Below, piece after piece: positions 43,771 to 59,457 of a stretch of 64,000 nt of DNA (position 1 is its first letter; every line of letters starts with the position of its first letter). The translations under genes were made by a program, and so were the position numbers. A model generated the notes under the pieces. The model searched no databases, was not told where the DNA came from, and worked only from the letters and a program-made list of their open reading frames with translations. This DNA is from Alphaproteobacteria bacterium (GTDB lineage Bacteria > Pseudomonadota > Alphaproteobacteria > MPNO01 > UBA830): positions 800,001 through 864,000 of the forward strand of contig OZ219791.1 in NCBI GenBank assembly GCA_964291215.2, written 5' to 3'.

Positions 43771-45872
43771 GTATCTCCTCACCCCTCCGCAGAGGCGGGT
43801 TTGGCGTTGTGCATCTTGATCATGTCGGCGGCGAGTGCGATCCGGATGGCGGCTGTAGCCGAGTGCGGCCATGGAGGTGAGATAGCTTGAGCTTCGGCAC
43901 CAGGCCTCGGCGTGGAGCCGGGTTCGGAAGCATCCGGACATCTTGACCTTTGCCATCCGGATTTTCTGCTCGCCGGTGTTGTTGGTGAAGCTGACGTCCG
44001 GGTGCGCCAGGCTAACTGGTGGAATGTTGCCGGGTGCAAGTCCCGGCAGGAAGAGAGGCTAACCACCACTTTCTCCGTGAACCATGCGTCGTGAGGCGTC
44101 AGGCGAAGCGTTGGGGAGCGGCAGGCGTGGGCCGGGCTATTGAGCCACGAGATGCTTTGAAACCGGAGTGCCGAGGTCGTGGCCGAAGGCAACACCCCGC
44201 GAGCCGCGTTGGTGAGGCGAGCGGGGGCTCCGCGGGGTCCGAGAACCATGGCCGAAGCAGGGACCTGGGAGGTCTTGCCCCTCTGTCGTGGAGGGGCCGC
44301 AGAGGAAAGGAACTATTCCGTAAACCGATGATGAACGAGAAGTCAGATTCGGCCATAGTACCGCTGAAGGCAGCGAACAAAGGTTCTCCGGAGCCTGCGG
44401 AGTTGCTGGAGGGAAGGGCAATGCGATTGGCCCGCGCCGCGCGCAGAAGCGGGGGTCACAGGCGGCTGAACGCAGGTAGCGAAGAGGAACCCGGAAGAGC
44501 GTCTTTACTCCACCACGTGATGTCCTGCACGACGCGTTCCATTCCTTGAGGAAGGACGCGGCGGCGGGGCGTTGTGTGGCAAGCGTACGCGGAAGGGGTG
44601 GAACTGGTTGACCTACACGACCGTGTGCACAGGGGTGCGTACCGAGCGCCTCCAGGGTCTACATTCCCAAGGAGGATGGAGGGCAACGACCGCTTGGCAT
44701 TGCCTCGCTGGAGGACAAGATTCTTCAGCGGGCAGTGTGATTCTGGTGCCGCTCTACGAAACGGAGTTCCTCGGTTTCAGCTACGGTTTCCGGCCGGGGC
44801 GCATCACGCGCTCGACGCCGTCACGGTGGAACGGCGGAAGGTCAACTGGATCGTTGACGCCGACATCCGTGGGTTCTTCGACAATCTCGACCGCGACCAT
44901 CTGATTGCGATGCTCGAGAAACGGATCGGGGGGTTATCCGGCTGATCATCAAGTGGCTGAACGCCGGCGTCATGGAAGGGACCGACTGGCAAGGGAACAC
45001 CGCAGGGGGCGATTGTATCGCCCTGCCTCGCGAACGTTTACCTGCACTACGTGCGACTGGTTCCAGAACCACTGGCGCAAGCGGATGGCTGGAGGCGACA
45101 CGATCATTATGCGGACGACTTCGTGTGCGGCTTTCAGCATCTGGGCGATGCGCAGCGCTTTCTCCGGGACCTTGGGGAGAGGCTGGCCCACTTGAACTGC
45201 ACCCGGAAAATCATCGAGTTCGGTCGGTTTGCCAGAGCGAACCGCCGGAAGCAGGGCAAGACGTTCGACTTCCTCGGCATGACGCACTTCTGCGAACAGA
45301 CGAGGAAAGGCAGGTTCAGGGTCGGTCGCAAACCGTCTCGCAAACGGGCACCCTGCGGCGGATCAAGGGGGCCTTGCGCATGCGATGGCACGACAACCGG
45401 CACGAAACGGCCAAGTGGTGAGTTATCAACGGCTGCTACTACGCCGTCCCGGGAAGCAGTCAATCCCTGCAGGGGTTCATACACCAATGCAAACGGCTGC
45501 TCATGCGTGCCCTTCGGCGACGCTCCCAAAAGGACTTCACCGGGGACATAGACACCCTTGCCACCGCCCACTGAGCCAGCATCCGCCACCCGTGGCCAAA
45601 CCAGCGCCTTGTCGTCAGGGGAGGAGCCGGATGCGAACAGCGCATGTCCGGTTCTGTGCGGGGGGACCGGGGCAACCCGGTTCCCTACCGCAATGTCGCT
45701 CATGAAGCGCAGGACGGACTCTTCGTGCCTTGCGAGACGCTCCTGGAGGTTGTGCGCGTTCGCAATCCGTCCGCGTTTTTCTTTCTGTCGGGGCGGGATT
45801 TCAGGCAGTTCCTTCGCCCCCCTCCCCGGTCAGGATGGTCCGGTATCGCTTGATGACGCTGCGACGGTCGGC
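43771..45872 (-). mobile_element. IS66-family 3' portion (divergent variant) containing a group II intron
   Basis: TIR GTATCTCCTCACCCC at 43771; VLRFMSD|PDVSFTNN...SGCFRT. Confidence 0.85.
44002..45694 (+). mobile_element. Group II intron copy 2, frameshifted RT
   Basis: Starts GTGCGCCAGG; YADD; domain V at about 45622-45657; ends CCCTACCGCAAT. Confidence 0.92.
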
Positions 45873-45876
45873 CTTA

Positions 45877-45882
45877 TATGAT
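45877..45882 (+). promoter_or_regulatory. -10 box (TATGAT) of the IS110 circle-junction promoter
   Basis: Joining the ends at CT places TTGCCT (47475-47480) exactly 17 bp upstream. Confidence 0.7.
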
Positions 45883-45887
45883 CAGGT

Positions 45888-46174
45888 TTTGTCCCCGTGA
45901 TGATGCAATCATCCACAGCGGTCGGGGGCGGGAAAATGTGGATAACCTCGACTATGGGAGAGCGCCCGGTCCATGGTTGCAGAGAGATTCCGCTCCCTTG
46001 TGCGAGAACGTACAGGGGAGCGGGGATCAAACGATCTCCGCGGAGGTTGCCGTTTCGCCCCTGGCCTTGCAGAGTCGTTCCCGAGCGTGGTCGGCCAACC
46101 TCCTTTGGCGTCCCTTGCGTCCTGAATGGATGCTTGGGTTTGAACCGTATCATCACAAGGCGAGGAGCAAGGGA
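45888..46174 (+). ncRNA. Predicted IS110 bridge RNA (copy 1)
   Basis: Target loop 46042-46103 and donor loop 46111-46174 contain guides matching the target and donor junctions. Confidence 0.78.
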
Positions 46175-46983
46175 TGATGGTCAAGGTAGTAGCAGGGGTC
46201 AGCAAGGCCAGTCTGGACATCTGGCGCGTCGTTTTGCGAACGACGCCACGGGCGCGTGGCTTCGCAGCCTCGAGGTGACCCGTGTGGTGATGGAGGCGAC
46301 AGGTCGCTATCACCGCAGGGTTCACCAGTGTCTTCATGACCGGGGCTTCGAGGTTGTCTTGGTCAACCCGTTGCGGGCTCGGCGCTTCGCCGAGGCGATG
46401 GGCCATCTGGCCAACCGCGTTGACGCCAAGATCGGCACGGTGCGATCTCGAGCCTGTGGCCCCTCAGGAAGCCTTCCTCAAGAGCCTAGGGGATCTCCTG
46501 GTGCCGCGCTTGTCGACGCCAGGCAAGTGGCCAAATGAGGTGGATGGCGAGACCGTCACAAGGGCCTCGGCGGCCGATCTCGATGACCGCATTGCCGGCG
46601 CGGCGATCAAAGCGGTGATCGCCGGTGATCCCGAGCAGAGGTACGCCATCCTGACCTCGATCCCCGGTCCAGTGACCGCCGCAGCCCTTCTTTGTTGGAT
46701 GCCCGAACTCGGCAGTCTCGACCGTCGTCAGGCGGCAGCCTTGATCGGGGTGGCGCCGATAGCCAACGACCACGGCGCTCGGCATATCCGAGGCGGGCGC
46801 CGGAGGCCACGTGATCTCCTGTTCATGGCCGCGACCTCGGCTGCACGCTTCAACGCGGATCTGGTGTTCGAACGCCACAAGACCGCCGGCAAGGCCCACA
46901 AGGTCGCCATTGTCGCCGTGATGCGCAAGCTCTGGCGAACACCTTGCTGCGACAGCAGCGTTGCCCGAAGCACCGGTGAGTGA
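46174..46983 (+). pseudogene. IS110 recombinase pseudogene
   Basis: MMVKVVAGV-SKASLDI (first Asp deleted); several frameshifts. Confidence 0.85.
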
Positions 46984-47000
46984 GCGAAGGAGACCCCCTC

Positions 47001-47265
47001 ATGGCCCTCACCTCTGCCGAGAAACAGCGCCGTTATCGGGAACGCCGCAAATCTCTGCCCACGGAAAGCCTCGTCGTTCCCGTGCGCAACGCTGGCGCGA
47101 TGCGGTGGCTCGGTGCAGTGCAGGAGCACTGTCGGGACTGTCTCGACAGTCTCCCCGACGCCCTGCGCGACACGGCTTGCGGAGAACGTCTGCAGATCAT
47201 CGTCGAGGCTGACATCGCGGATCTTGAGGACATCGAACCGCCGCGCGGCTACGGACGGGACACTT
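47001..47265 (+). pseudogene. Small conserved hypothetical cargo ORF inside IS110
   Basis: MALTSAEKQRRYRERRK...LDSLPDALRDT...IEPPRGYGRD; homologous remnant at about 58300-58427. Confidence 0.6.
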
Positions 47266-47495
47266 GGAACCCCATTGAACATGATAACGTTACCATGCAC
47301 GGGGACGCTGGACGGCAAGGTGGCCGCGCTCACGTGACCGTGAGCAATGGACGGCAACCCGCCGCCGGGACCACAAGCTGCATGTCGCCTCACTCGCAGG
47401 ACATCGACAAGGCGGAACCCCGGACCGCCTGTGGATAACCACAGAAAAAATTACCGCGGACACCCGCAAAAACCTTGCCTGGAAACATGGATGCT

Positions 47496-47868
47496 CGGGA
47501 TGGTGCGATGCCATCATCGACCGCGCCAGCGACTTGTCCTCGTCGGCAACCGGAACCACGCCGATCTCGCCAAGACGGCACGACAGGTGCCTGTCGGGAT
47601 AATCCGGCGACGGGGCCAGGGACTCCGGGGTCACCGAGCCTCCGGCAGGCCGAGTGCGGCGGAGAACTTCGGAAGCGCGGTCGAGGCACAGTTCTCCCTT
47701 CGCGTTCCGCCAGTCCTCACGCTCGCAGAGCTCACGTGCCAGGAAGGTCCGCGTGCAATCCCCGGCGCCAAGCCGTGCCTTCAGCCAGTCAACCGTCTCG
47801 CCGCCATAATGTCGCAGGCCGATTCTCATGGAACCGTATATACGGCGTCAGTTGCTTCGAGTATACAG
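47496..47868 (-). pseudogene. 5' fragment of a DUF4338-type transposase, cut at the IS110 junction
   Basis: MRIGLRHYGGETVDWLK...LCEREDWRNAKGELCL...MMASHHPE. Confidence 0.7.
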
Positions 47869-47869
47869 T

Positions 47870-49777
47870 GTTCGGTTGAAAGGATGTGGACGGCGGTGAC
47901 GGCGTCGAAGGCGAGGCACTTCTTCAGATCGTCGGCCCTGTTGAGCCGGCGGTTTTTGATCCGGGTCCCGGTCTTCAGCGTGCGGAACTAGGTCTCGATG
48001 CTCCATCGCGTCCGGTACCAGCGCAGGACGGTCGCCGCGTGCACGGCCTCCGCTTGCGCCGGGCGCTCAGCAGCAGCAGCGCCTCGTCGCCGTCATCGGT
48101 CTTGCTGGCCGAGACCGCGAACATGGACACAGGTTCCGCGTCGCCCTCGCGTTGCGGCGGCGCCACCTCGACCTGTGCCGTGCGGATCTCGAGATGGACA
48201 ACGCGCTTCTTGCGGGCGCACGGGCCGGCGGCGGCCGGGATCGTCAGCTCCGTCACCGCCACGGGCCGCCGGGCCGCGACATGCTCCCACAGGCACTCCT
48301 CGTTGCCGTTGGGCGTCCGCACGCGCTGTCTCGCCGAGCGGCTCGCCCGCACCAGCAGCGCAGCCCCGGTGTCCACGGCATGGGCGAGCAGCTCCCGGAA
48401 GTCGCCCTCGCGGTCGCAGACCGAGACCACCCGCGTGTCCGGGCAGGCCGTCGCGAGCTCTCGTGCCCGCTCGAGACCGGCGACCCGGCGCCGGCTGTCC
48501 TCCCCGGGCTCCTGCCGGAAGGCCGCGTCCATCGTGAACAGGCCCAGGGGCCGGCCCTCCGGCGTCACCGCCAGACCGGCATGGGCGAGAATGTCGACGC
48601 TCCCCTTGTCGCCCCCGCCGATCCCGTCAGGACCCTTCGTCGACCCCGGGCCGCTGTAGTCGAGTGCCGTCGTGTCCTGTATCGCAAGGACAAGAGGCCC
48701 TGTCCGACAACGCTCGACTCGACATGCGCCTCCAGAACGTGCTCCATGGAGACCCTCGGGTTCGACAACAACCGGCAGGCGGCCTTCTGCTCCGCCTTCT
48801 CCGAAAAGATGACCGGCAGGTCCTCCCCCATGTTCTCCATCCAGGCCCGGCCCATGTCAACGATGCGCCGCCGCATTCGCCCGTCGGTATGGCGCGTGCG
48901 CCCGTACTCCCGCTCCGCCCAGTCCGCGTCAGTGCCGTCATAGGCGCCCGCCAAGGCGCCGAGTGGACGTCGCTGTGTCCCGTGGAGCGCCGCCCGCCAG
49001 CCGCTCTCCAGCGCCAGGACCCGCACCGTGCGAACCTCGCCGCGGCGCCCGCTGGTCCGCCCGGCCACGGTCCAGCCGGCGCAGTGGTAGCAGTAACCGC
49101 TGTGCTCCCACCGGACGCACCGCATAACGGGCCTCCCAGTCGTCGGCGATGCGCTCCGTCGCCATGCGCAGGACCCGGGAGGCCAGCCCGTAGACCCGGA
49201 CGCCGGGAAGCAGGAGAAACCGATGATGGCAGATCACGCGCCTGATGTTGGCGGCGCGGGCGTCGGCAGACCATCCGATCCACTTGTCCCGCGCCCGCAG
49301 CTGCCAGGTCGCGGACCCGAAGCCGATCCCGCCGAGCGTGCCGTGGTGCTGCGAGCGGACCCAGTAGCGCATCTGGCCGCCGGGCGAGCGCGCCCATCCC
49401 AGCGGGTGGTGCGTCGCCATCATCGCCTCCCAGAGCCGGCGATCGTCGGTGCCGCCCACCAGTTCGAGCGAGACCGGGCCGAGATCCTGCAGCAGGCAGG
49501 CGAGCTTGGTGTCGGGCACGTCATCGGACGGGACGGCGGGCACGACGGTCGGATCGGGGGTGCTCCGCGGCGGCGGAAGCTCGAGACCCACGCGCTCGGC
49601 GAGCGCCGGCAGCACCTTCGCTGCCGCCGACAGGCACGGACGACCAAGCGCGTTGCGCCAGCCGGTGCGCTCGCAAAGCTCGCGAGCCAAATCGTGACGG
49701 GTGGCGGCGGCGGAGCGCAACGCGCCAGCGAACCAGTCAAGTGTCTGTGAATCGAAATGGCGGAGACCGACCTGCAT
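47870..49777 (-). pseudogene. DUF4338 plus IS4/IS50(Tn5)-like transposase pseudogene
   Basis: WQLRARDKWIGW, RFLLLP...LASRVL, then DWAEREYG, VCDREGD, WSIET. Confidence 0.8.
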
Positions 49778-49818
49778 GCCCGCAAGCATGCACGAAACGA
49801 ATTACCTATACAAATCTG

Positions 49819-51299
49819 GTAACTGTTCACCCCCTGGTTCCGGCTTGATGTCGGGGTAGAGTAACGAACGGGTTTACGTGGAGATTTGACATTGCAGGCC
49901 GATTCGCTTAGTGGTGGTCATCGAGAACGACGGGGACCGCCAGTGGGCTACTTTGGATCGAAGGCGACGAGCGGGCTGTGCCAGCTGCTTCCGGGGCTCC
50001 AGCCCCCGCATGATCTGTATGTGGAAACGCATCTCGGAGGCGGCGTGCTGATGAAGCGCAAGGCCGGGTGATGGCGACGGGCGGCGCGCGAGGAGTTCGA
50101 AGCGGCCAAGACCGCGGCGCTGCCGGCAAGGTGGCGGAAGAGGCCGTCATCCGCGTCTTCGTCATCCTGCTCGACATCCTCATCGTCGTCCTTCTGGAGA
50201 AGACCACGCACGAGCCGGAACTCCGGTCTGCCGCCGTCACAGACGGACAAGAGCGTGCCGGGAGCAACGGCCCGAAGCCGAACCAGCAGATGGGCGACAA
50301 CCTGCGCAAGATCATCGTCGAGGAGACGGTCGCGGCCTGCGACGCCTGCGGCGCCGACGGCCCCGTCGATCGGGAGCGCCGCACGACATCGTGTTCGAGG
50401 TCGTCGAGCGTCGACGCCGAGGAATGCCCGAAGTGCAAGGCCCGGGGCCGGTTCCCCGACAACATCCCGTGCAGTACGGCATCCAGGCCCTCGTCATCAA
50501 CCTGCTGGTCGCCCAGATGCTGTCCCTGCGCCGTGCCGTTGCGTTCGTGCAGGCGATCTCTGGCATCAAGCTCTCCGAGGCCTCGGCTATGCTTTCACGA
50601 TGTGTCATGGGAGGAAGCCGCCGTGGCGCACCTCCTGCAACGCCCGATGTCGATGATTTCGGATCAACAGTAAGTGGCTCCATGTCGTGGGGCCCTGACG
50701 TGCAAGTTCCCGCACCGCAAGCGCGGGCAAGAGATCGGCCCGTGCTACAAGGGCGTCCTGGGCCTCGTATATGGCAGTGTAGCCACCAGCTGTGCGGTAG
50801 CCACCAGCTGCGCGAACTGACCTTTGTCGTCGAGGCTACCGCGCGACTGATGAAGGGCCTGCTCCGCGAGGTCTGCCACAAGGTCAACAAGAGCGCATCC
50901 AAGACCCTGAACGACGCCGGGCGCAAGCGCTACCGCACCATCAGGGCGCCAAGGAACTGCCCGACATCCCGACGAAAGGAAAACGTGGACGCAAGTCCGA
51001 CGCGCACAACCTGCACGAACGTCTCGTGAAACACGAAAACCTGCGCTTCATAGACAACCCCGACGTCAGCTTCACCAACAATGCCGGAGAACAGAAGATC
51101 AGGATGGCAAAGGTCAAGGTGTCCGGATGCTTCCGCTCCACGCAAAAGCATGGTGCCGGGGCTCAAGCTACCTCACCTCCATGGCCGCACTCGGCTACAA
51201 CCCACTCGTCGCCACCCAGATCGCCCTCGACGGAAAAGCCGCAGACATCATCAACGAGCACTATGGCCAATCAGAACCCAACAAGGGGTTAGTAGATAC
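49819..51299 (+). mobile_element. IS66-family element, intron-free paralog of 12247-15370, degenerate
   Basis: TIRs GTAACTGTTCACCCC / ...GGGGTTAGTAGATAC; perfect 8-bp TSD CAAATCTG; methyltransferase fragment at 49943-50071. Confidence 0.92.
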
Positions 51300-51329
51300 C
51301 AAATCTGATACTTTGAAAGGGTCCTGACC

Positions 51330-52040
51330 CGCGGAGCCCCGGGGCTGTTTGCCCGGCTGCGCGCCTGCCGGGGCACCCTGCAGATCGACATTCCCCGCCT
51401 GACGTCCCGGCCGAAGTCCTCGGGGCGGAAGAAGCAGCCCGGCCGCACGCTGCGCCGGAACGCGGTACTCGAATTGCGCTGGTCACGCTGCCGGCGACTG
51501 CCAACTACCCCGATGCCGCGCCCGTGACCGCGCTGCATCTCCTCGAGACGGACCCGCCGACCGGGGAGTTCCCGGTGGAATGGTTCCTGCTGACCGACCT
51601 TCCGGTGGACCACGCGGCGCGGGAGACCGTCGGCTGGTATGCGCTGCGCTGGCGGATGCTGGTTCCGGGTGCTGAAGTCCGGTTGCCGGGCGGAACACCT
51701 GGCGACGCGCAAGGCCTGCCGGCTGGAACGGCAGATCACGATCCACGCCGTGATCGCCTGGCGTCTTTTCGGGCGGGACGTTCCGACGATCGAGCCCGAC
51801 TGCCTGTTCTCTGACCTGGAACTCCGCTTCCTCTCCGACTATGCCCGCCGATACCGGCTGGACCCACACTCGGGGCGGCGGTGACACTGGTGGCGATCCT
51901 CGGCGGATATCTGAACCGCAAGCATGATCCGCTACCGGGCGACCAGACGATGTGGCTATCCGCGACTGGCCACCGCCACGCTGGCCTATGAATGCCTGCT
52001 TGAGGCTCTCGGCCTGGATCCGACATCGGAAGGATACAAT
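51330..52040 (+). pseudogene. 3' fragment of an IS4/IS50-like transposase
   Basis: VEWFLLT, WYALRWR, FRVLKSGC, AVIAWR, LGGYLNRKHDP. Confidence 0.8.
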
Positions 52041-52066
52041 CAAGCTCTGCGCAATTTATGCCCTCG

Positions 52067-53255
52067 TTCCATAGTGAAGTGCAACACATGATGGGTTGTG
52101 GTCATGTGTTTTTAGACGCATGATGTTGCGGAGCGGTAGCGGCGAGAGTTTCTGTGCAAGATGAAGGGAGCTTGTTCATGTCCAAAGGCTACCGTCACCT
52201 ACGAAGAGCGATGCCAGATTGAGGCGTTACAGAAAAGGGGTCTTTCACAAGGTGCGATTGCTCGGCAGCTGGGCCGATCAACAATTTTCCGGGAGATCAA
52301 GCGCAACACCGGGGGACGGGGTTACCGTCACAAGCAGGCGCAAAGGATGGCAGAAACGCGCCGCAGGGCCGCCTCGTCTGTTTCCTGGCGGTTGACGCCT
52401 CGGGTTGAGGCTCAGAAAAAGCTGCGGGAGGGCCCCGAGCAGCGGCCGTTTTCGACTGGAGGGCCGTGGGTCGGCAACGGATCCATGATCGCCGAAGATC
52501 GGAGAGCCGGGGGCGTCTTGTGGAAGAAGCTTCGGCGGCGCGGCAAGAAGCCGAACTGGAAGGGTGGATGCCATTCCGGCCGGGTGGACATTTCCGAGCG
52601 CCCTGCGGAGGCAAAGGAACGGGTTGGCGACCGGGAGCCATCATCGGCAAAGCTCACAGTGGAGCTGTCGTGTCGATCGTGCCACGAAATACGCCTTGCT
52701 GGGTGGACAGAAAGACACGGTTGGTATGATCCGCCTGCTCGGCTCTGGTGCGCTATTGGTCCACACAATCACAACGGCAAGGAGTTCGCAGACCACAGGC
52801 GTGTCGCTGAAGCATTTGACGCAGATTTCTTCTTCGCCTTTCCATTCTTGAGAGCGCGGCTTGAATGAGCACACCAACGGCCTGGTGCGGGAGTACTTCC
52901 CGAAGGGCACGGACTTTCGCGCGACATGCAACGAAGATGTTCAGAAGGTGCAGGATCGGCTCAACACTCGGAAAGTCCCGGGATCGCCGACGGAGGTAAT
53001 CTTGAAGTGAAACCGCCCTGACCATCTGCGTTCCGAAGCCGCAACGTGCAGCAGGGTCCATGCCGCGCGACGGCGAAATAGTGGCTTGAAGCCGACAAAG
53101 GCGTTGCATAAGCTTGATGTTGAAGGAACTGAAGCTGTTCCTAGGCGGAATCGAGAGTGGCAGAGGGGGAAAATTTGTGCAACATCCGGCCCTCATCGCA
53201 GTGAGGGCGTAGCCCGAACGGAGATGAGGGCCGGATGTTGCACTTCAGACTGGAA
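52067..53255 (+). mobile_element. IS30-family element, degenerate
   Basis: TIRs TTCCATAGTGAAGTGCAACA / revcomp TTCCAGTCTGAAGTGCAACA; ERCQIEAL, NGKEF, NEHTNGLVREYFPKG. Confidence 0.85.
53177..53243. repeat. Perfect 21-bp inverted repeat (25-nt loop) in the IS30 right end
   Basis: GTGCAACATCCGGCCCTCATC ... GATGAGGGCCGGATGTTGCAC. Confidence 0.9.
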
Positions 53256-53395
53256 GTGGGGATATATAAAAGCTGACGGTGCTTTCGCTACGCGTGGTGT
53301 CGGACGGAGCGACGTTCTTCGAGGGTGTCGACCCGAGATGGCGGATCGCGCTTGGGAGGACTTCATGACCGAGATCGGGACATAAGGGCCGGACG

Positions 53396-54181
53396 ATGCG
53401 CATTGGGGTGATCGGATATGGTTTTATCGGGCGCTCCATCGTGGAACGGATCGATGGCAGCGGCGGGCTGTTCGAGACTGCCTTCGTCTACAATCGAAGC
53501 GCCGATGCCCTGGTCGGGCTAGATCCCGCGCTCCGGCTCGACGACCTTGGCGGAGCGCGCGAACATCGTCCCTCGCTGATCCTTGAATGCGCCCATCCGT
53601 CCTTTACCGCCCGCTTCGGTGCGGAATTTCTGGAATTCGCCGACTACATGCCACTCTCGGTCACAGCGCTCGCCGATGACGGGCTCAGGACCCGGCTTGA
53701 AGAAGCGGCGAACGCGCATGGCACGCGGTTGTTCGTACCGAGCGGCGCACTCCTCGGCGGAGACGAGCTGTTGTCGCGGTCCGGGCAGTGGCAACGGGTT
53801 AGGATTACCTTCCGTAAGCACCCCGACAATATCGACTTCGCCGACAGCGGCGTGGATCCGGCGACGATCGACGGCGAGACGGTGATCTACGAGGGCTCGG
53901 TCCGCGGTGTCGCGCGACTTTACCCGCGCAATGTCAACACCATGGTGACTTGTGCGCTGGTTGCGACCGGCCTCGATGAATGCGAGGCGCGCCTGGTTTG
54001 TGATCCCGGGCTCGATTGCGCGGTAGCCGAGGTCGAGGCCTGGGACCACCAGGGCGGTATGTTCCGCACCGAGAAACGCCAGCCCGCCGTCGGCGTCTCC
54101 GGCACCGAAATGGTGCATTCCATCTGGTATTCCATCTTGCGCATGAGCGGCAGCCGGAGTCATGCGATAGAGTTGGTGTAA
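53396..54181 (+). CDS. Aspartate dehydrogenase-like (DUF108) oxidoreductase
   Basis: GYGFIG Rossmann motif, ECAHP, PSGALLG, RKHP, YPRNVN. Confidence 0.75.
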   Translation: MRIGVIGYGFIGRSIVERIDGSGGLFETAFVYNRSADALVGLDPALRLDDLGGAREHRPSLILECAHPSFTARFGAEFLEFADYMPLSVTALADDGLRTRLEEAANAHGTRLFVPSGALLGGDELLSRSGQWQRVRITFRKHPDNIDFADSGVDPATIDGETVIYEGSVRGVARLYPRNVNTMVTCALVATGLDECEARLVCDPGLDCAVAEVEAWDHQGGMFRTEKRQPAVGVSGTEMVHSIWYSILRMSGSRSHAIELV

Positions 54182-54227
54182 CGGTATGCTTGGAGTCGAA
54201 AAATCGAAACCGATAATGGAGGATATT

Positions 54228-55208
54228 ATGTCCATGCTGAAATCGTGGTCCGTGGTGGCCACCCTCGCCCTGGCTGCCCTGGTTCTGTTATCTCAACCCG
54301 GATCGGCCGCGGACAAGAAGGTCGCGATCGCGAACCTCGGTCCCCATTCCGTCCTCAAGCTGGTGATCGACGGCTTCAAGGCGGGCTTGGAGAGCGGCGG
54401 CTTCAAGGAAGGGGCGGGGGTCGAGTACATTTACAAGGATGCGAATTTCGATCCGGCACTGGTAGCACAGGTGCTGACTGCGCTGGAGGCGTCCGATCCC
54501 GATCTGTTGTTGACCATCACGACACCCATCACCCAGGCGTCCAAGCGGGTGATCCGCAACAAGTCGCTGCCGATCGTTTTCGCGCCCGTCACCGATCCGG
54601 TGGACGCGGGGCTGGTTAAATCCTGGGACAAAGGGAGCGCGCGTTTCGTCGGCGCCTCCAATCTTCAGGACATGGATACGGTCATCGCGAAGGCCAAGAC
54701 GATCCTGGGCAAGGTGTCGACGATGGGGCTCCTGTTCAATCCGGGCGACGCGAACGACCGGGTGAACGTCAAATACGCCGAAGCCGCGGCGAAGAAGGCC
54801 GGCGTGAAACTCAGGACGGTCAGCGTGGAGACGGTCAACGATATTCCGAGCCGGGTGGCGGGGCTGAAGGGGGTGGACTTCATCTACCTAATCCCGTCGA
54901 GCATGCTGCAGCCCTCTGTCGCGGTCATTGCCGCATCGGCCAAGCGCAACAGGATACCGGTGATCAACGCCAGCCCCGGCGGCGTGAAGGACGGGCATGT
55001 TCTGGCGGCGGTCTCGGTCTCGTGGCGGGATGTCGGCTTTCAGGCCGGATTGCTTGGCGCGAAGATTCTGAAGGGAGCCAAGCTGTCCGATCTACCGATC
55101 TTCAGGCCCAAGCCGAAGGATCACCGCGTGCTTCTGAGCGGCAAACGGTTCGGCGAGATGAAATTGCCGATACCGGCCGCGCTCAAGGACTGCAAATGCG
55201 TGATGTGA
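54228..55208 (+). CDS. ABC transporter substrate-binding protein (ABC_sub_bind family)
   Basis: Signal peptide; PIVFAPVTDPVDAGLV; GGAGGA RBS. Confidence 0.85.
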   Translation: MSMLKSWSVVATLALAALVLLSQPGSAADKKVAIANLGPHSVLKLVIDGFKAGLESGGFKEGAGVEYIYKDANFDPALVAQVLTALEASDPDLLLTITTPITQASKRVIRNKSLPIVFAPVTDPVDAGLVKSWDKGSARFVGASNLQDMDTVIAKAKTILGKVSTMGLLFNPGDANDRVNVKYAEAAAKKAGVKLRTVSVETVNDIPSRVAGLKGVDFIYLIPSSMLQPSVAVIAASAKRNRIPVINASPGGVKDGHVLAAVSVSWRDVGFQAGLLGAKILKGAKLSDLPIFRPKPKDHRVLLSGKRFGEMKLPIPAALKDCKCVM

Positions 55209-56008
55209 CCGGCCGCCGGCAAGGTCCGGCGTCGATCCGCGTTTACAACGCAAGCAAGGTTTTCGCGCCCGGCACGCAGAACGAAAAGACCGCCCTGAAC
55301 AAGGTGGCTTTCGCACTGGAGGACGGCGAATTCGCCGTCGTCATCGGCAGTAACGGTGCGGGCAAGAGTACGCTTCTGAACGCCCTTGCCGGCGAAATCC
55401 TGCTCGATTCGGGGGGAATCCTGATCGACGGACAGGATGTCCGAAGCCAGCCTGTCTACAAGCGGGCGAAGCTTATTTCGCGTGTGTTCCAGGACCCGAT
55501 GTTGGGCACGGCACCGGAACTCAGCATCGAGGAAAACCTCGCTGTCGCCGTCAGGCGCGGCAAGCGGAAGACCTTCAGGCTGGGGCTCAACCGACGTAAC
55601 CGGGAGTATTTTCGGGAGCGGATTTCCGTCCTCGGGCTCGGGCTGGAGAACCGCCTGTCAGAGAAGGTTCGGTCGCTCTCGGGTGGCCAGCGCCAGTCCC
55701 TGGCCCTGATCATGGCGGCCCTTCTCGCACCGCGGCTGATGCTGCTCGACGAGCACACGTCCGCCCTCGATCCGCGCGCGGCCGAGCTCGTGCTCAAGCT
55801 GACATCGGAGGTGGTGACCGGAGACAAGATCACCACCCTCATGGTCACCCACAATATGCAGCATGCGCTGCGCTTCGGCACAAGGCTTTTCATGATGCAC
55901 GAGGGCGGGATCGTCCTCGACGCGCCGGAGGAGGAGAAGGCGGGTCTCACCGTGAACGACCTAGTCGGGCGGTTCCTCGTCACCGACGACAAGATGCTTC
56001 TGGGCTGA
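55205..56008 (+). CDS. ABC transporter ATP-binding protein
   Basis: GSNGAGKS, LSGGQRQ, LLDEHTSALDP. Confidence 0.88.
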   Translation: MTGRRQGPASIRVYNASKVFAPGTQNEKTALNKVAFALEDGEFAVVIGSNGAGKSTLLNALAGEILLDSGGILIDGQDVRSQPVYKRAKLISRVFQDPMLGTAPELSIEENLAVAVRRGKRKTFRLGLNRRNREYFRERISVLGLGLENRLSEKVRSLSGGQRQSLALIMAALLAPRLMLLDEHTSALDPRAAELVLKLTSEVVTGDKITTLMVTHNMQHALRFGTRLFMMHEGGIVLDAPEEEKAGLTVNDLVGRFLVTDDKMLLG

Positions 56009-56016
56009 GCGCCGCG

Positions 56017-56898
56017 ATGGACTTCGTCGAGATTTATTTCAACCTGTTCGCGGTGAGCCTCGTCCAGGGCGCGATCTTCGCTTTTCCCGCGCTCGCCGTG
56101 ATGATCCCCTTCCGCATGCTGGGGCTGCCCGACCTGACCTCGGAGGGTGCCTTTCCCTTCGGCGCGGCGATCGTGGCAACGGTCACGGTTGCGGGCTTCG
56201 ATCCGGTGCTCAGCCTGTCGGCGGCGGTCCTGTTCGGCTTCGTCGTAGGCGCCGCCACCGCGTTGATCCATATTTTTCTGCGGGTACCCTCACTGCTCGC
56301 CGGGATCATCGTGCTGACCATGCTGTTCAGCATCAATATCCGGGTTATGGGAAAACCAAATACCGCGCTCTTCGACAACGATTCGATCTTCACCCTGGCG
56401 CTCGGCGCCGACGGGGGCGAGCCGTGGACCCAATTCGTGCTGATCCTCGCCTTGGCACTTGTCTTTGTCGTCGTCTTCTACTGGTTCCTTAACACCGAAC
56501 TCGGCATGGCGCTCCGCTGCGTCGGCGCCAACCAGACGATGTCCCGCGCGCAGGGTATCCCAACGAACTGTTACATCGTCGCCGGGATCGCCATGGCCGG
56601 CGGGTTCAGCGCCTTCGGCGGCGCGGTGATGGCCCAGCACCAAGCTTATGCCGACGTCAATATGGGGGTCGGTGTGCTGATCGTCGGCCTGGCGGCGACG
56701 ATCCTGGGCGAGACCTTGGTCGGGCGCAGTACCCTGACCCGCCAGCTTGCCGCTCCGGTGATTGGATCGCTAGCCTATTTCCAGGTGGTGGCGGTGGCGC
56801 TCGCGCTCGGCCTGAAACCCTCCGACCTCAAGCTGCTCACCGGCCTATTCGTGCTGATCACGCTCGCCACTCCCATCCTCATGCGCGCGAAACGGTAG
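56017..56898 (+). CDS. ABC transporter permease
   Basis: PDLTSEGAFPFG; multiple TM helices. Confidence 0.88.
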   Translation: MDFVEIYFNLFAVSLVQGAIFAFPALAVMIPFRMLGLPDLTSEGAFPFGAAIVATVTVAGFDPVLSLSAAVLFGFVVGAATALIHIFLRVPSLLAGIIVLTMLFSINIRVMGKPNTALFDNDSIFTLALGADGGEPWTQFVLILALALVFVVVFYWFLNTELGMALRCVGANQTMSRAQGIPTNCYIVAGIAMAGGFSAFGGAVMAQHQAYADVNMGVGVLIVGLAATILGETLVGRSTLTRQLAAPVIGSLAYFQVVAVALALGLKPSDLKLLTGLFVLITLATPILMRAKR

Positions 56899-56939
56899 AC
56901 TTTATCCCGGCACGACATGACCTTGTATGATCGGGGCCC

Positions 56940-57626
56940 TCGGCGGGTATGCCGATGTCCTGTTGGTGGCAGCTCCCCAACAGCGCTTTTAATTTACCCT
57001 GCCGTGGATTCCATAAGCCGGGCCGTTGTTCAGGTATCGGCTGTTTTCCGGGCCGGCCGCCGTTCCAAATCGCGTCCCGCCACTTCCAGATAATCGGCGC
57101 CGTGAAGACCAGCCCGACGGCGAAGAAGTCTCTTGCGCTGGAGCAGGAGGTTGCGCCTTTGGGCCGGCTTCTTGCCGAGGCTGGCGTTGACGCGCGGAAG
57201 TTGTCGGCATGTCTCGTGTTGTTCCCGATCAGGTGCAACCGCTCAAACCGTTCCTCGCGGCGCCAGCCAATTCAATGGTCCCGCGGCGCACAGCTGAAGG
57301 CGCCCGTCTGCCAGCCCGCAGCGCCAATCCACCGTCCGCGCCAGGTGAACACGTAGCGCAGACCTCGACCGGCAAACTGCTTGAAACCAAGATAGTGATG
57401 ACGGTCAACCACACGGTTCCAGCGACACACCTCATCGGGTCGCGCAAGGCCCACAACCACATCCCGGAGCGTAAAACTCTCCGGCGTCGCCTCGAACAAA
57501 CCCGTTCACTGTCCCTCTATCACAACACCGGATGTCACGGCGCTTCACAAAAAGTCAACGAAAATGCGAATCATCCGGAACAAGCGGAACCAATCCTTCC
57601 AATAAACCCAGCGTGGGATAGTTTTG
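56940..57626 (-). mobile_element. ISAs1-type element A, 5' (DUF4338) remnant; left limit approximate
   Basis: End CAAAACTATCCCACGCT; HHYLGFKQFAGRGLRYV...WIGAAGW; paralog of about 61330-62030. Confidence 0.7.
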
Positions 57627-58101
57627 CCGCTGTCGCAAGGTGATCCCATGCTTGTTGATGTGATGTGATCGGAGTCCTGATCGCGGCGCGGGTTGACGCG
57701 TTCGAGGCTGCGATTTTGAGATTTGCTGACGCGCTGTTGCGGCGCGGGGTGCGATTGGTCGACCTATCCGGGGCGAGCGAGAGGCCTTGGTTGCCGGGCT
57801 CGAAAGCTTGCGGTTTCTGTCGGGGAGAGAGGCGCGGTCAGCCTGGTCTCGTGATTGCGTGCAGGACCTGCTTGCGCTTGTCCGCATGGTTGTGTCGACG
57901 AAGCTGTTGAAGGGTTTGGTCAGCTTGCGCTTGTTGTGGATGATGACGGCGATTGCGAGGGTGATCGCGTTGTTTGCGAACGCGTTCGGAGCATGGAGTC
58001 GTCTTCGCGGAAGGTGGCATCGCGGACATGATGATGGCTCTCGACTACCCAGTGTCCGCGATTCCATGCGAGCAACTGTTGCGGCGAGGCGCGTTCGACC
58101 G

Positions 58102-59457
58102 AGCATCCATGTTTCTTGGCAAGGTTTTTGCGGGTGTCTGTGGTGATGTTTTCTGTGGTTGTCCACAAGCGGTATGGGATTTGCTCTGCGATCGAGGCGA
58201 CATGAAGCTTGTGGTCCCGGCGGCGGGTTGCCGTCCATTGGTCACGTGAACGCGGCTACCTTGCCGTCCCCGGGCACGTGACCGTCCGGGTTCCAGGTGT
58301 CCCAAGGCGGTTCGATCTCCTTGATGTCGACCTCGACGATGATCTGCAGACATTCTCCCCAAGTCGTGTCGTAGAGGGAGACTGTCGATACAGTCCCGAT
58401 CGCGCTCTCGGCAGGGGTGAGGGCCATGAGGGTGGTCTCCTTCGCTCACTCACCGGTGCTTCAGGCAACGCTGCTGTCGCAGCAAGGTGTTCGCCAGAGC
58501 TTGCGCATCACGGCGACAATCGCGACCTTGCTTGCCGGCAGTCTTGAGGCGCTCGAACACGCTTGCCAGGTCCGCGTTGAAGCGGGCCGGTTGCGGCCAG
58601 GAGATCGCGTGGCCTTCGGCGCCCGCCACGGATGTGCCGAGCACCGTGGTCGTTGGCGCCACCCCGATCAAGGCTGCCGACGCTGCCGAGTTCGGGCATC
58701 CAGAAGGGCCGCGGCGGTCACCGGACCGGGGTCAGGATGACGTAGCTCTGCTCGGGATCACCGGCGATCACCGCTTTGATCGCCGCGCCGGCAATGCGGT
58801 CATCGAGATCGGCCGCTAAGGCCCTTGTGACGGTCTCGCCATCCACCTCATCTGCCACCTGCTTGGCGTCGACAAGCGCGGCACCAGGAGATCCTCCAGG
58901 CTCTTGAGGAAGGCGGAGCCACAGGCTCACCGTGCCGATCTTGGCGTCGAAGCGGTTGGCCCATCGCCTCGGCGAAGCGCCCGCAACGGGTTGACGAGAA
59001 TAACCTCGAAGCCCCGGTCATGAAGACACTGGTGAACCTTGCGGTGATAGCGGCCTGTCGCCCACCACCCGGCTCACCCCGAGGCCGCGAAGCCACCTGC
59101 CCGTGGCGTCGTCCGCAAAACAATGCGCCAGATGTCCAGACTGGCTGACCCCTGCTACTACCTTGACCATCGTCCCTTGCTCCTCGCCTTACGATGGGTT
59201 CAAACCCAAGCATCCATTCAGGACGCGAGGGACGTCAAGGGAGGTTGGCCGACCACACTCGGTCGCGGCTCTGTCAAGGTCGAAATGGCAACCTCCGCGG
59301 AGATCGTTTGATCTCCGCTCCCCTGTGCGTGTTCGCTCAGGGAAGCGGAATCTCTCTGCAACCATAAACCGGACGCTCTCCCACAGATCCACATTTCCCC
59401 GCCCCCAACTGCTGTGGATGATTTCATCATCAAGGGGACAAAACCTGGTCATATAAG
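58102..59457 (-). mobile_element. IS110-family element copy 2 (CT core)
   Basis: Removal restores the ISAs1 frame ATGAC-CT-CGGTCGAAC (M-T-S-V-E-R). Confidence 0.9.
59173..59442 (-). ncRNA. Predicted IS110 bridge RNA (copy 2)
   Basis: Same stems as copy 1; donor guide ATGGATGCT; target guide CGACCGAG complementary to its own flank. Confidence 0.78.

What the first reader, a model, noticed from the sequence alone, without database searches (positions are those of the whole stretch)
45873..59457. Two IS110 copies with naturally reprogrammed bridge-RNA target loops, each matching its own site inside another transposon
Seen: both left ends have a donor loop (stem TCCCTYGCGTCCT...AGGAGCAAGGGA) holding ATGGATGCT(T), identical to the joined element ends CATGGATG-CT-TATATG. 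Both have a target loop (stem GGAGGTTGCC...GGCCAACCTCC) whose interior differs. Copy 1 right guide TCCCGAG (46079-46085) is complementary to its flank CT-CGGGA. Copy 2 right guide CGACCGAG (59258-59265) is complementary to its flank CT-CGGTCG, and its left guide TTCGACCT shares GACCT with the left flank. Established: this is the IS621 bridge-RNA pairing logic with a CT core. Inference: guide diversification within one genome, aimed at IS4-type and ISAs1-type transposase genes, meaning an RNA-guided element that parasitises other mobile elements. Both recombinase genes are now pseudogenes.
Basis: partly seen in the sequence, partly recalled or inferred. Interest (0 to 1): 0.9.

Follow-up and report, generated by a model that had tools for sequence, protein, structure and literature searches.

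The report
Jumping gene with eleven re-aimed guides
A known kind of RNA-guided jumping gene has left about 66 broken copies in this bacterium, and their predicted guide RNAs come in at least 11 versions that each spell a site where copies sit, mostly inside other jumping genes, so the genome likely records natural step-by-step re-aiming of the guide.

Summary
The two copies belong to an IS621-like IS110 family with 66 left ends in this genome. Of 64 readable target loops (18 guide pairs), guides track their flanks far beyond shuffles, as they do in intact relatives. 13 of 18 distinct sites match some guide pair perfectly (0.05% by chance). 14 of 18 lie in repeats (IS1634, ISAs1, IS66, IS4-type, IS630, ISNCY).

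Corrections: copy 1 is a recombinant. Its left flank (IS66) and right flank (DruA/IS4-type) come from different insertions, and its guide fits the right-hand site. Copy 2's left guide fits poorly (3 of 6). Both target loops carry deletions. The two copies are about 7% apart and may have arrived separately; single-base retargeting is clearest within one 33-copy sublineage.

Natural reprogramming and aiming at transposase genes are published, and this scan noted bridge RNAs on other DNA before. Not found in my searches: so many guides in one genome, a conserved 96-residue passenger gene, and identical 5-8-base deletions that appear to spread between repeat copies without neighbouring substitutions. 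No RNA or activity data.

The parts
45873..47495 (+). IS110 copy 1, core CT at 45873-45874 and 47494-47495; recombinant between two insertions
45877..45882 (+). -10-like hexamer in the left end; 17 bases from the -35-like hexamer once the ends are joined
   Evidence: 17-base spacing in 37 of 37 copies with both ends
47475..47480 (+). -35-like hexamer in the right end of copy 1
45985..46175 (+). predicted bridge RNA of copy 1: two 5' hairpins, target loop, donor loop
46042..46103 (+). target-binding loop of copy 1; 5' stem arm lacks 6 bases present in intact relatives
46053..46061 (+). left target guide of copy 1; fits the original left side of the right-flank site (5 of 6) better than the present left flank (4 of 6)
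46078..46085 (+). right target guide of copy 1, complementary to core plus 5 bases of the right flank
46109..46175 (+). donor-binding loop of copy 1: left donor guide 46126-46134, right donor guide 46150-46159
46177..46983 (+). broken DEDD recombinase gene of copy 1 (315 aa in intact relatives)
47001..47264 (+). broken copy of a conserved 96-aa passenger gene of no known family
45695..45872 (-). left flank of copy 1: fragment of an IS66-family transposase gene
   Evidence: empty allele L016
47496..47829 (-). right flank of copy 1: 5' part of a DruA-domain / IS4-type element
58102..59457 (-). IS110 copy 2, core CT at 59457-59456 and 58103-58102
59240..59296 (-). target-binding loop of copy 2: left guide 59285-59277 (3 of 6 match), right guide 59265-59258 (full match); central hairpin deleted
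59172..59234 (-). donor-binding loop of copy 2, left donor guide 59217-59209
58450..59170 (-). broken recombinase gene of copy 2 (approximate 3' end)
57923..58101 (-). ISAs1-family transposase gene interrupted by copy 2, downstream part
   Evidence: empty allele L015
59458..59525 (-). ISAs1-family transposase gene interrupted by copy 2, short upstream part (approximate limit)

Best explanation
These are two dead copies of an IS621-like IS110 family whose predicted bridge RNA likely chose insertion sites by base pairing, and whose target guides were likely re-aimed by point mutation at least 11 times, mostly onto other insertion sequences. Shown by sequence: the two-loop left end, one CT core with no duplication, guides that track flanks, and 58 broken copies. 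Inferred from IS621: the element circularised, the joined ends formed a promoter, and the recombinase paired the left guide with the bottom strand and the right guide with the top strand. About 4-5 bases left and 5 bases right of the core set the site, and a donor-loop handshake base fixed the base just left of the core. Inferred here: all copies share one donor sequence, so a copy with a mutated guide could still leave its old site. Guides that happened to match a multicopy IS gained dozens of harmless landing sites and multiplied. Copies whose guide fits another copy's site come from recombination between copies or from insertion directed in trans. Afterwards the family was inactivated by short deletions that appear to pass from copy to copy.
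For: 66 left ends, 64 readable target loops, 11 left and 10 right guide variants, 18 pairs. Empty alleles with a single CT for 30 of 38 copies that keep both junctions. Permutation tests in this genome and, independently, in related loci from other genomes (19 unique left pairs 3.89 vs 2.36; 13 unique right pairs 4.31 vs 1.75; 0 of 50000). Within the sublineage-B guide class alone: 65 and 94 of 20000 shuffles. 13 of 18 distinct sites match some guide pair at 9 of 9 non-core bases, against 0.05% of random CT sites. Stem covariation: 8 of 50 pairs with two-sided changes, 0 of 500 shuffles. Right donor guide follows the left-end base. Handshake G goes with target C in 63 of 63 cases; all 3 T targets have A. 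Intact relatives keep D-E-D-D and the catalytic serine and match IS621 best in the PDB. Filled and empty host copies are equally diverse in the three large classes.
Against: No RNA, circle or activity data; no intact recombinase of this family in the genome. Many copies carry a guide that fits another class's site: full match over the last 5 left bases in only 17 of 41 copies and over the first 4 right bases in 40 of 59 (before one mis-parsed row was fixed). Five of 18 sites lack a perfect guide. Perfect 11-base matches in unique DNA stay empty. Recombination among copies blurs the order of events. The three sublineages form an open polytomy with an element from another genome; monophyly of this genome's copies is neither rejected nor shown (p-AU 0.32).
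Confidence: 0.8

Rival explanations
1. The guide variety was imported: several already-programmed IS110 lineages entered this genome separately from neighbours in the same community, and little re-aiming happened here.
For: Sublineages A, B and C are about 7% apart, as far as from intact L035 of another genome (6.5-8.2%). Gap-free pieces identical to L035 occur in the same three runs. Two other genomes hold two guide types each. This may well be true for copy 1 versus copy 2.
Against: Sublineage B (2.4% mean divergence) holds five guide pairs with perfect sites, linked by single-base steps. Sublineage C and related partial copies hold five more. None of these guide pairs occurs among the related loci read.
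Confidence: 0.12
2. The covariation is pseudo-replication: a few insertions were copied together with their host IS, or homogenised by gene conversion.
For: Most copies fall in three host classes; 9 copies share one deletion across the left junction; the small ISNCY class looks clonal; conversion is rampant.
Against: The signal holds on unique guide-flank pairs (0 of 50000) and on 18 distinct sites. Filled host copies are as diverse as empty ones in the three large classes. Singleton guides match singleton sites.
Confidence: 0.04
3. Guides are rewritten from the occupied site: after an off-target landing the target loop is corrected towards its flanks by a templated process.
For: One ISAs1 host class holds copies with 2, 1 and 0 mismatches, and the ISNCY class copies with 1 and 0. 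The genome has about 80 group II intron copies.
Against: The reverse cases also exist (a guide for the ISNCY site sitting in an ISAs1 site). Mutation plus selection, or conversion from majority copies, explains both. No mechanism is known to me.
Confidence: 0.04

Closest known systems
IS621 and ISCro4 bridge recombinases, IS110 group (PMC11208160 and PMC11208158, passages read)
   Same: Non-coding left end with 5' hairpin, target loop and donor loop; left guides read the bottom strand and right guides the top strand; CT core; discontinuous right donor guide; handshake bases; junction promoter; D-E-D-D plus serine in intact relatives (28-bit-order detail: best PDB hits IS621 E 3e-28, ISCro4 E 4e-25).
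   Different: Right target guide reads about 7 bases rather than 4; 315-aa recombinase; long right end carrying a 96-aa passenger gene; at least 11 specificities in one genome instead of one REP target; all copies here are dead.
ISEc21 / ISMch6 and ISEc11 / ISXne4 (PMC11187229, passages read)
   Same: ISEc21 targets codons of IS3-family transposases; both pairs show natural redirection by changed guide bases.
   Different: Those are single redirections between different elements (72% protein identity for ISMch6). Here the steps lie among copies about 2-4% apart in one genome and reach at least six IS families.
Half-match and donor-only excision of IS621; direct transfer by CazIS110 (10.64898/2026.08.31.748434, abstract, Discussion and passages; 10.1101/2025.10.25.684509, passages)
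   Same: Gives the route by which a guide-mutant copy could leave a site that it no longer matches, and by which mismatched landings could arise.
   Different: Laboratory mechanisms; not tested for this family.
Deletion spectra of bacterial pseudogenes (PMC6054270, passages read) and gene conversion among IS copies
   Same: Small deletions, some at microhomologies, erode dead genes.
   Different: The published spectrum follows a power law with excess at multiples of three. Here sizes 2-4 are scarce, 5-7 dominate, identical scars recur across sublineages and density rises with copy number.

Membership tests
IS110 group (IS621-like bridge recombinase elements) | DEDD (PF01548) plus PF02371 recombinase | tested here: met
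   both domains over their cut-offs in fragments of copy 1; intact relative P0004 scores 208 bits on NF033542, cut-off 140
IS110 group (IS621-like bridge recombinase elements) | Catalytic D-E-D-D and serine intact (active enzyme) | tested here: not met
   present in relatives; in this genome every one of 58 copies has at least 7 frameshifting gaps and the first Asp codon is lost in 55. These are dead members.
IS110 group (IS621-like bridge recombinase elements) | Two-loop non-coding RNA upstream of the recombinase gene | tested here: met
   consensus fold and stem covariation on 12 relatives plus both copies
IS110 group (IS621-like bridge recombinase elements) | Core dinucleotide at both ends, one copy in the empty site, no further duplication | tested here: met
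   empty alleles for 30 of 38 copies with both junctions
IS110 group (IS621-like bridge recombinase elements) | Target guides covary with flanks, left with bottom strand and right with top strand | tested here: met
   with wrong-strand control
IS110 group (IS621-like bridge recombinase elements) | Donor guides match the joined element ends | tested here: met
   left donor guide in all readable loops; right donor guide identical or G-T wobble in 36 of 40 copies
IS110 group (IS621-like bridge recombinase elements) | Promoter formed at the circle junction | tested here: met
   -35-like and -10-like hexamers 17 bases apart in 37 of 37 copies with both ends; sequence only
IS110 group (IS621-like bridge recombinase elements) | RNA expressed, circle formed, recombination shown | not testable with these tools
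   needs experiments
IS1111 group | Guide RNA downstream of the transposase gene, top-strand match first | tested here: not met
   loops lie upstream and the bottom-strand guide comes first

The most novel reading that the evidence does not exclude
This one genome preserves a walk of single-base guide changes by which an RNA-guided recombinase colonised one IS family after another, and then shows how the host killed it: a copy-number-dependent process passes 5-8-base deletions, but not neighbouring substitutions, between all repeated DNA, a bacterial counterpart of fungal repeat-induced mutation.
Probability: 0.3. Interest if true: 0.85.

Novelty: new variant of a known kind. Interest (0 to 1): 0.6.

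Why it matters
How bridge RNA guides change target in nature has been seen only between different elements. Here at least 11 guide-site pairs on almost one scaffold give a ready test set: which positions matter, how many mismatches a landing tolerates, and whether re-aiming goes by single steps. Intact sister recombinases exist for the assay. The family also offers a 315-aa recombinase with a natural 7-base right guide, and an unstudied passenger gene tied to IS110s. If the deletion pattern is an active process, it would be an unrecognised way for bacteria to disable all high-copy mobile DNA at once.

Tried and rejected
Rfam: no bridge RNA family at gathering threshold in 40000-64000, only group II intron domains. 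Single-sequence folds do not give the two open loops cleanly, though they are more stable than shuffles (z -3.7 and -3.4); the alignment fold was needed. RNA runs: no RNA holder listed. Intact recombinase of this family in the genome: none; two distant full-length IS110-type frames (about 26% identity) exist. Deletions as assembly error: rejected, because four of the same deletions stand in Logan contigs of all three runs. Those runs are one study and may include the source sample. Reading the universal 6-base stem deletion as older than the guide radiation: dropped, because other deletions cross sublineages without neighbouring substitutions. GC-ward conversion drive: not seen, 108 GC-to-AT versus 28 AT-to-GC derived alleles. 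Ku and Argonaute as causes of the deletions: not found with PF02735 and PF02171; mutS is present in a 981-aa frame. Passenger protein: no Pfam family, one weak PHROG of unknown function, unnamed Atlas clusters, no PDB fold match; not found in 400 other genomes of the phylum. Plasmid searches did not name two host elements. The fourth host class did not align well enough for the filled-versus-empty test. Paper searches for deletion transfer among IS copies, for sponge-symbiont IS decay and for the MutS loop limit gave nothing that I could use.
Full report
OBSERVATION. Copy 1 runs from the core CT at 45873-45874 to the core at 47494-47495 on the + strand. Copy 2 runs from 59457 down to 58102. 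The stems, the left donor guide and both right target guides are at the quoted positions. Fragments of copy 1 score over the cut-offs of PF01548 and PF02371. The window is part of a 6.15-Mb genome in two contigs. It holds 66 left ends and 70 right-end hits of this element, of which 58 pair into full-length copies under 1.8 kb.

BOUNDARIES. Joining the two flanks of each copy and searching the genome found empty alleles with a single CT and no further duplication for 30 of the 38 copies that keep both junctions; one of the 30 matches poorly at the junction. Copy 2's site has 21 empty alleles and lies in an ISAs1 transposase gene. Of the 8 copies without an empty allele, 3 sit in unique DNA and 5 are hybrids whose two flanks belong to different places. 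Copy 1 is such a hybrid. Its left flank continues in IS66 copies and its right flank is the start of a DruA-domain, IS4-type element. A right end with the reciprocal IS66 flank exists elsewhere. Copy 1's left end carries sublineage-C substitutions while its reading frame is sister to sublineage A, which points to a crossover inside the element.

GUIDES TRACK SITES. 64 of the 66 left ends have a readable target loop: 11 left-guide hexamers, 10 right-guide pentamers, 18 pairs. 24 left ends have lost the core junction, so 41 left and 60 right flanks could be scored. Mean match was 4.29 of 6 on the left (shuffled 3.13) and 4.50 of 5 on the right (3.48), 0 of 20000 shuffles each. On unique guide-flank pairs (23 and 19) it was 0 of 50000; the wrong-strand control was null. 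Within the sublineage-B guide class alone the signal is weaker but present (65 and 94 of 20000). These figures include one row that was mis-parsed and corrected. I listed 18 distinct sites by reading; three more half-sites without a known other side were left out. 13 of the 18 match some guide pair at all 9 scored non-core bases, 1 at 8 and 4 at 7; the best of 18 pairs reaches 9 at 0.05% of random CT sites. Eleven guide pairs have a perfect site. Against this, many single copies carry the guide of another class, including copy 2's left guide (3 of 6).

INDEPENDENT CHECK. Intact 315-aa relatives exist (74% identity over the matched part). I fetched 64 loci and read the 32 closest. Their guides track their flanks as well: 19 unique left pairs 3.89 vs 2.36 and 13 unique right pairs 4.31 vs 1.75, 0 of 50000. 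Positional matches show about 4-5 effective bases left of the core and 5 right of it. Two other genomes each hold two guide types. An alignment of 12 relatives with both copies folds into two 5' hairpins, a target loop with central hairpin and a donor loop. For that structure, with my own donor stem, 8 of 50 pairs change on both sides (0 of 500 shuffles; the donor stem is nearly invariant and adds nothing). The right donor guide follows the left-end base across relatives. The base after it is G with target C in 63 of 63 cases, and all 3 sites with T have A, though 3 A cases sit at C; this fits the handshake pairing described for IS621 (PMC11208158, passages). Joined ends give -35-like and -10-like hexamers 17 bases apart in 37 of 37 copies. 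The relative P0004 keeps D-E-D-D and the serine and matches IS621 and ISCro4 in the PDB.

TARGETS. Hosts named by Pfam or NCBIfam on empty alleles are ISAs1, IS66, DruA-domain elements, IS630, ISNCY and IS1634. The largest class is assigned to IS1634 because its empty copies include the locus that hit NF033559. One host class is called ISAs1-like only from similarity to an ISAs1 copy and from a recalled motif. One ISAs1 family is hit at four positions. 14 of 18 sites lie in repeats, which cover 29% of the genome (binomial p 3e-5). Perfect 11-base matches in unique DNA remain empty for every guide, so survival bias cannot be separated from aiming. In the three large classes filled host copies are as diverse as empty ones (14 vs 14, 11 vs 20, 20 vs 23 copies). 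That argues against one composite being cloned, though the hosts are themselves mosaic. The small ISNCY class looks more clonal.

HISTORY. Substitutions split the 58 copies into A (19 copies, 1.3% mean divergence, one guide), B (33, 2.4%) and a looser group C. The groups are about 7% apart, and the intact element L035 from another genome is 6.5-8.2% from each. All form one supported clade with an open polytomy; holding this genome's copies together is not rejected (p-AU 0.32, 21 of 64 rows used). Pieces identical to L035 occur in the same three runs that hold this element. So copy 1 and copy 2 (6.9% apart) may have arrived separately. Within B the guide pairs form a chain of single-base changes, each with a matching site, and one host class holds copies at 2, 1 and 0 mismatches. 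I read this as mutation followed by colonisation of a newly matching IS family. Donor-only excision would allow that (10.64898/2026.08.31.748434; abstract, Discussion and passages). The order is inferred, not shown.

DECAY. No intact recombinase of this family is in the genome. Each copy has at least 7 frameshifting gaps (median 15). Against L035, distinct deletions of 5, 6 and 7 bases number 21, 25 and 21, and those of 2, 3 and 4 bases number 0, 1 and 4. Four of them stand in independently assembled contigs of all three runs (one study, possibly including the source sample). Deletions are not inherited like substitutions: r2 is about 0.09 at all distances and most pairs fail the four-gamete test, against 0.30-0.43 for substitutions. 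19 of 32 scored deletions leave the same scar in A and B. Several are polymorphic in both while diagnostic substitutions 2-10 bases away stay own-type, for example 14 of 14 and 28 of 29 at 2 bases. One A copy did take a B deletion together with the adjacent substitution, and some deletions have 3-7-base microhomology and could recur. The same size spectrum holds in nine other repeat families. Its density rises with copy number in a sample of 2462 tiles, 819 of them repeated; low-copy duplicates may be under selection, which could produce part of that trend. My working reading is loop removal in heteroduplexes between copies, with loops over four bases escaping MutS. That size limit is recalled, not read (one search gave no usable paper). 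mutS is present; Ku and Argonaute were not found. Published pseudogene deletions follow a power law with excess at multiples of three (PMC6054270, passages).

SECOND GENE. A 96-aa frame follows the recombinase in 9 of 11 relatives and is broken here. It has 573 homologues, no Pfam family and no fold match. In a distant genome it again follows an IS110 recombinase in 7 of 10 loci scanned. Its role is untested.

COMPARISON WITH WHAT IS KNOWN. The element works like, and by every sequence test is a dead member of, the IS621-type IS110 group. Guide-target concordance across orthologues is published (PMC11208160, passages). Natural redirection between relatives and targeting of IS3 transposase codons by ISEc21 are published (PMC11187229, passages). 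I also saw the abstract and outline of PMC13626964 and passages of 10.64898/2026.08.14.744561 and 10.1101/2025.10.25.684509. Searches listed no paper on many guide variants within one genome. Searches listed none on deletion-only transfer among IS copies; I judged those from titles and abstract starts. I opened no supplements: the guide and target tables of PMC11208160 and PMC11187229 may hold within-genome cases. Earlier notes of this scan cover bridge RNAs on other DNA, a junction promoter in a relative, an IS600 deletion spread by conversion and a GC-ward drive among IS copies. The last was tested here and not seen.

VERDICT. A real feature; new variant of a known kind; interest 0.6. The mechanism is known. 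The value lies in the dense natural series of guide-site pairs and in the unexplained deletion pattern that killed the family.

Noticed in passing
whole genome G000; nine repeat families incl. window 44000-45700: Indels in repeats peak at 5-7 bases (615, 1461, 1287) with few of 2-4 (138, 80, 25). 5-8-base gaps per 100 substitutions rise from 2.5 to 17.9 with copy number. In the IS110 family, 19 of 32 scored deletions leave the same scar in two sublineages while diagnostic substitutions 2-10 bases away mostly stay own-type.
   Followed up: partly
L045-L051, L074 (one other genome): All 8 related IS110 copies aligned carry the same 7-base frameshift, although 7 of them have readable flanks of 5 different types; it may be an early stage of the same sweep.
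   Followed up: partly
window 47001-47264; L026:2479-2769; G334 loci L096-L119: A 96-aa helical protein follows the recombinase in 9 of 11 relatives; 573 homologues. In G334 it lies downstream of a distant, about 400-aa IS110 recombinase in 7 of 10 loci scanned.
   Followed up: partly
TBL stem of 32 of 58 copies: A 5-base deletion on the 3' arm lies opposite the universal 6-base deletion on the 5' arm and would restore a continuous 10-pair stem. Chance or selection is unresolved.
   Followed up: no
L105 (G334:C1): The IS110 recombinase frame is open but looks heavily altered at otherwise conserved residues (read by eye); possibly the GC-ward decay noted by the scan elsewhere.
   Followed up: no
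window 47886-49789 (-) and 47496-47829 (-): IS4-type elements with an N-terminal DruA (PF14236) domain occur in several multicopy families.
   Followed up: no
window 44037-45694: Broken group II intron (Rfam D1-D4-6 and domain V-VI), about 80 copies in the genome.
   Followed up: no
G001:C47 (L004): A same-genus genome holds a distant, apparently intact IS110 with the same donor guide and right end, and a right guide matching its own flank (read by eye).
   Followed up: no
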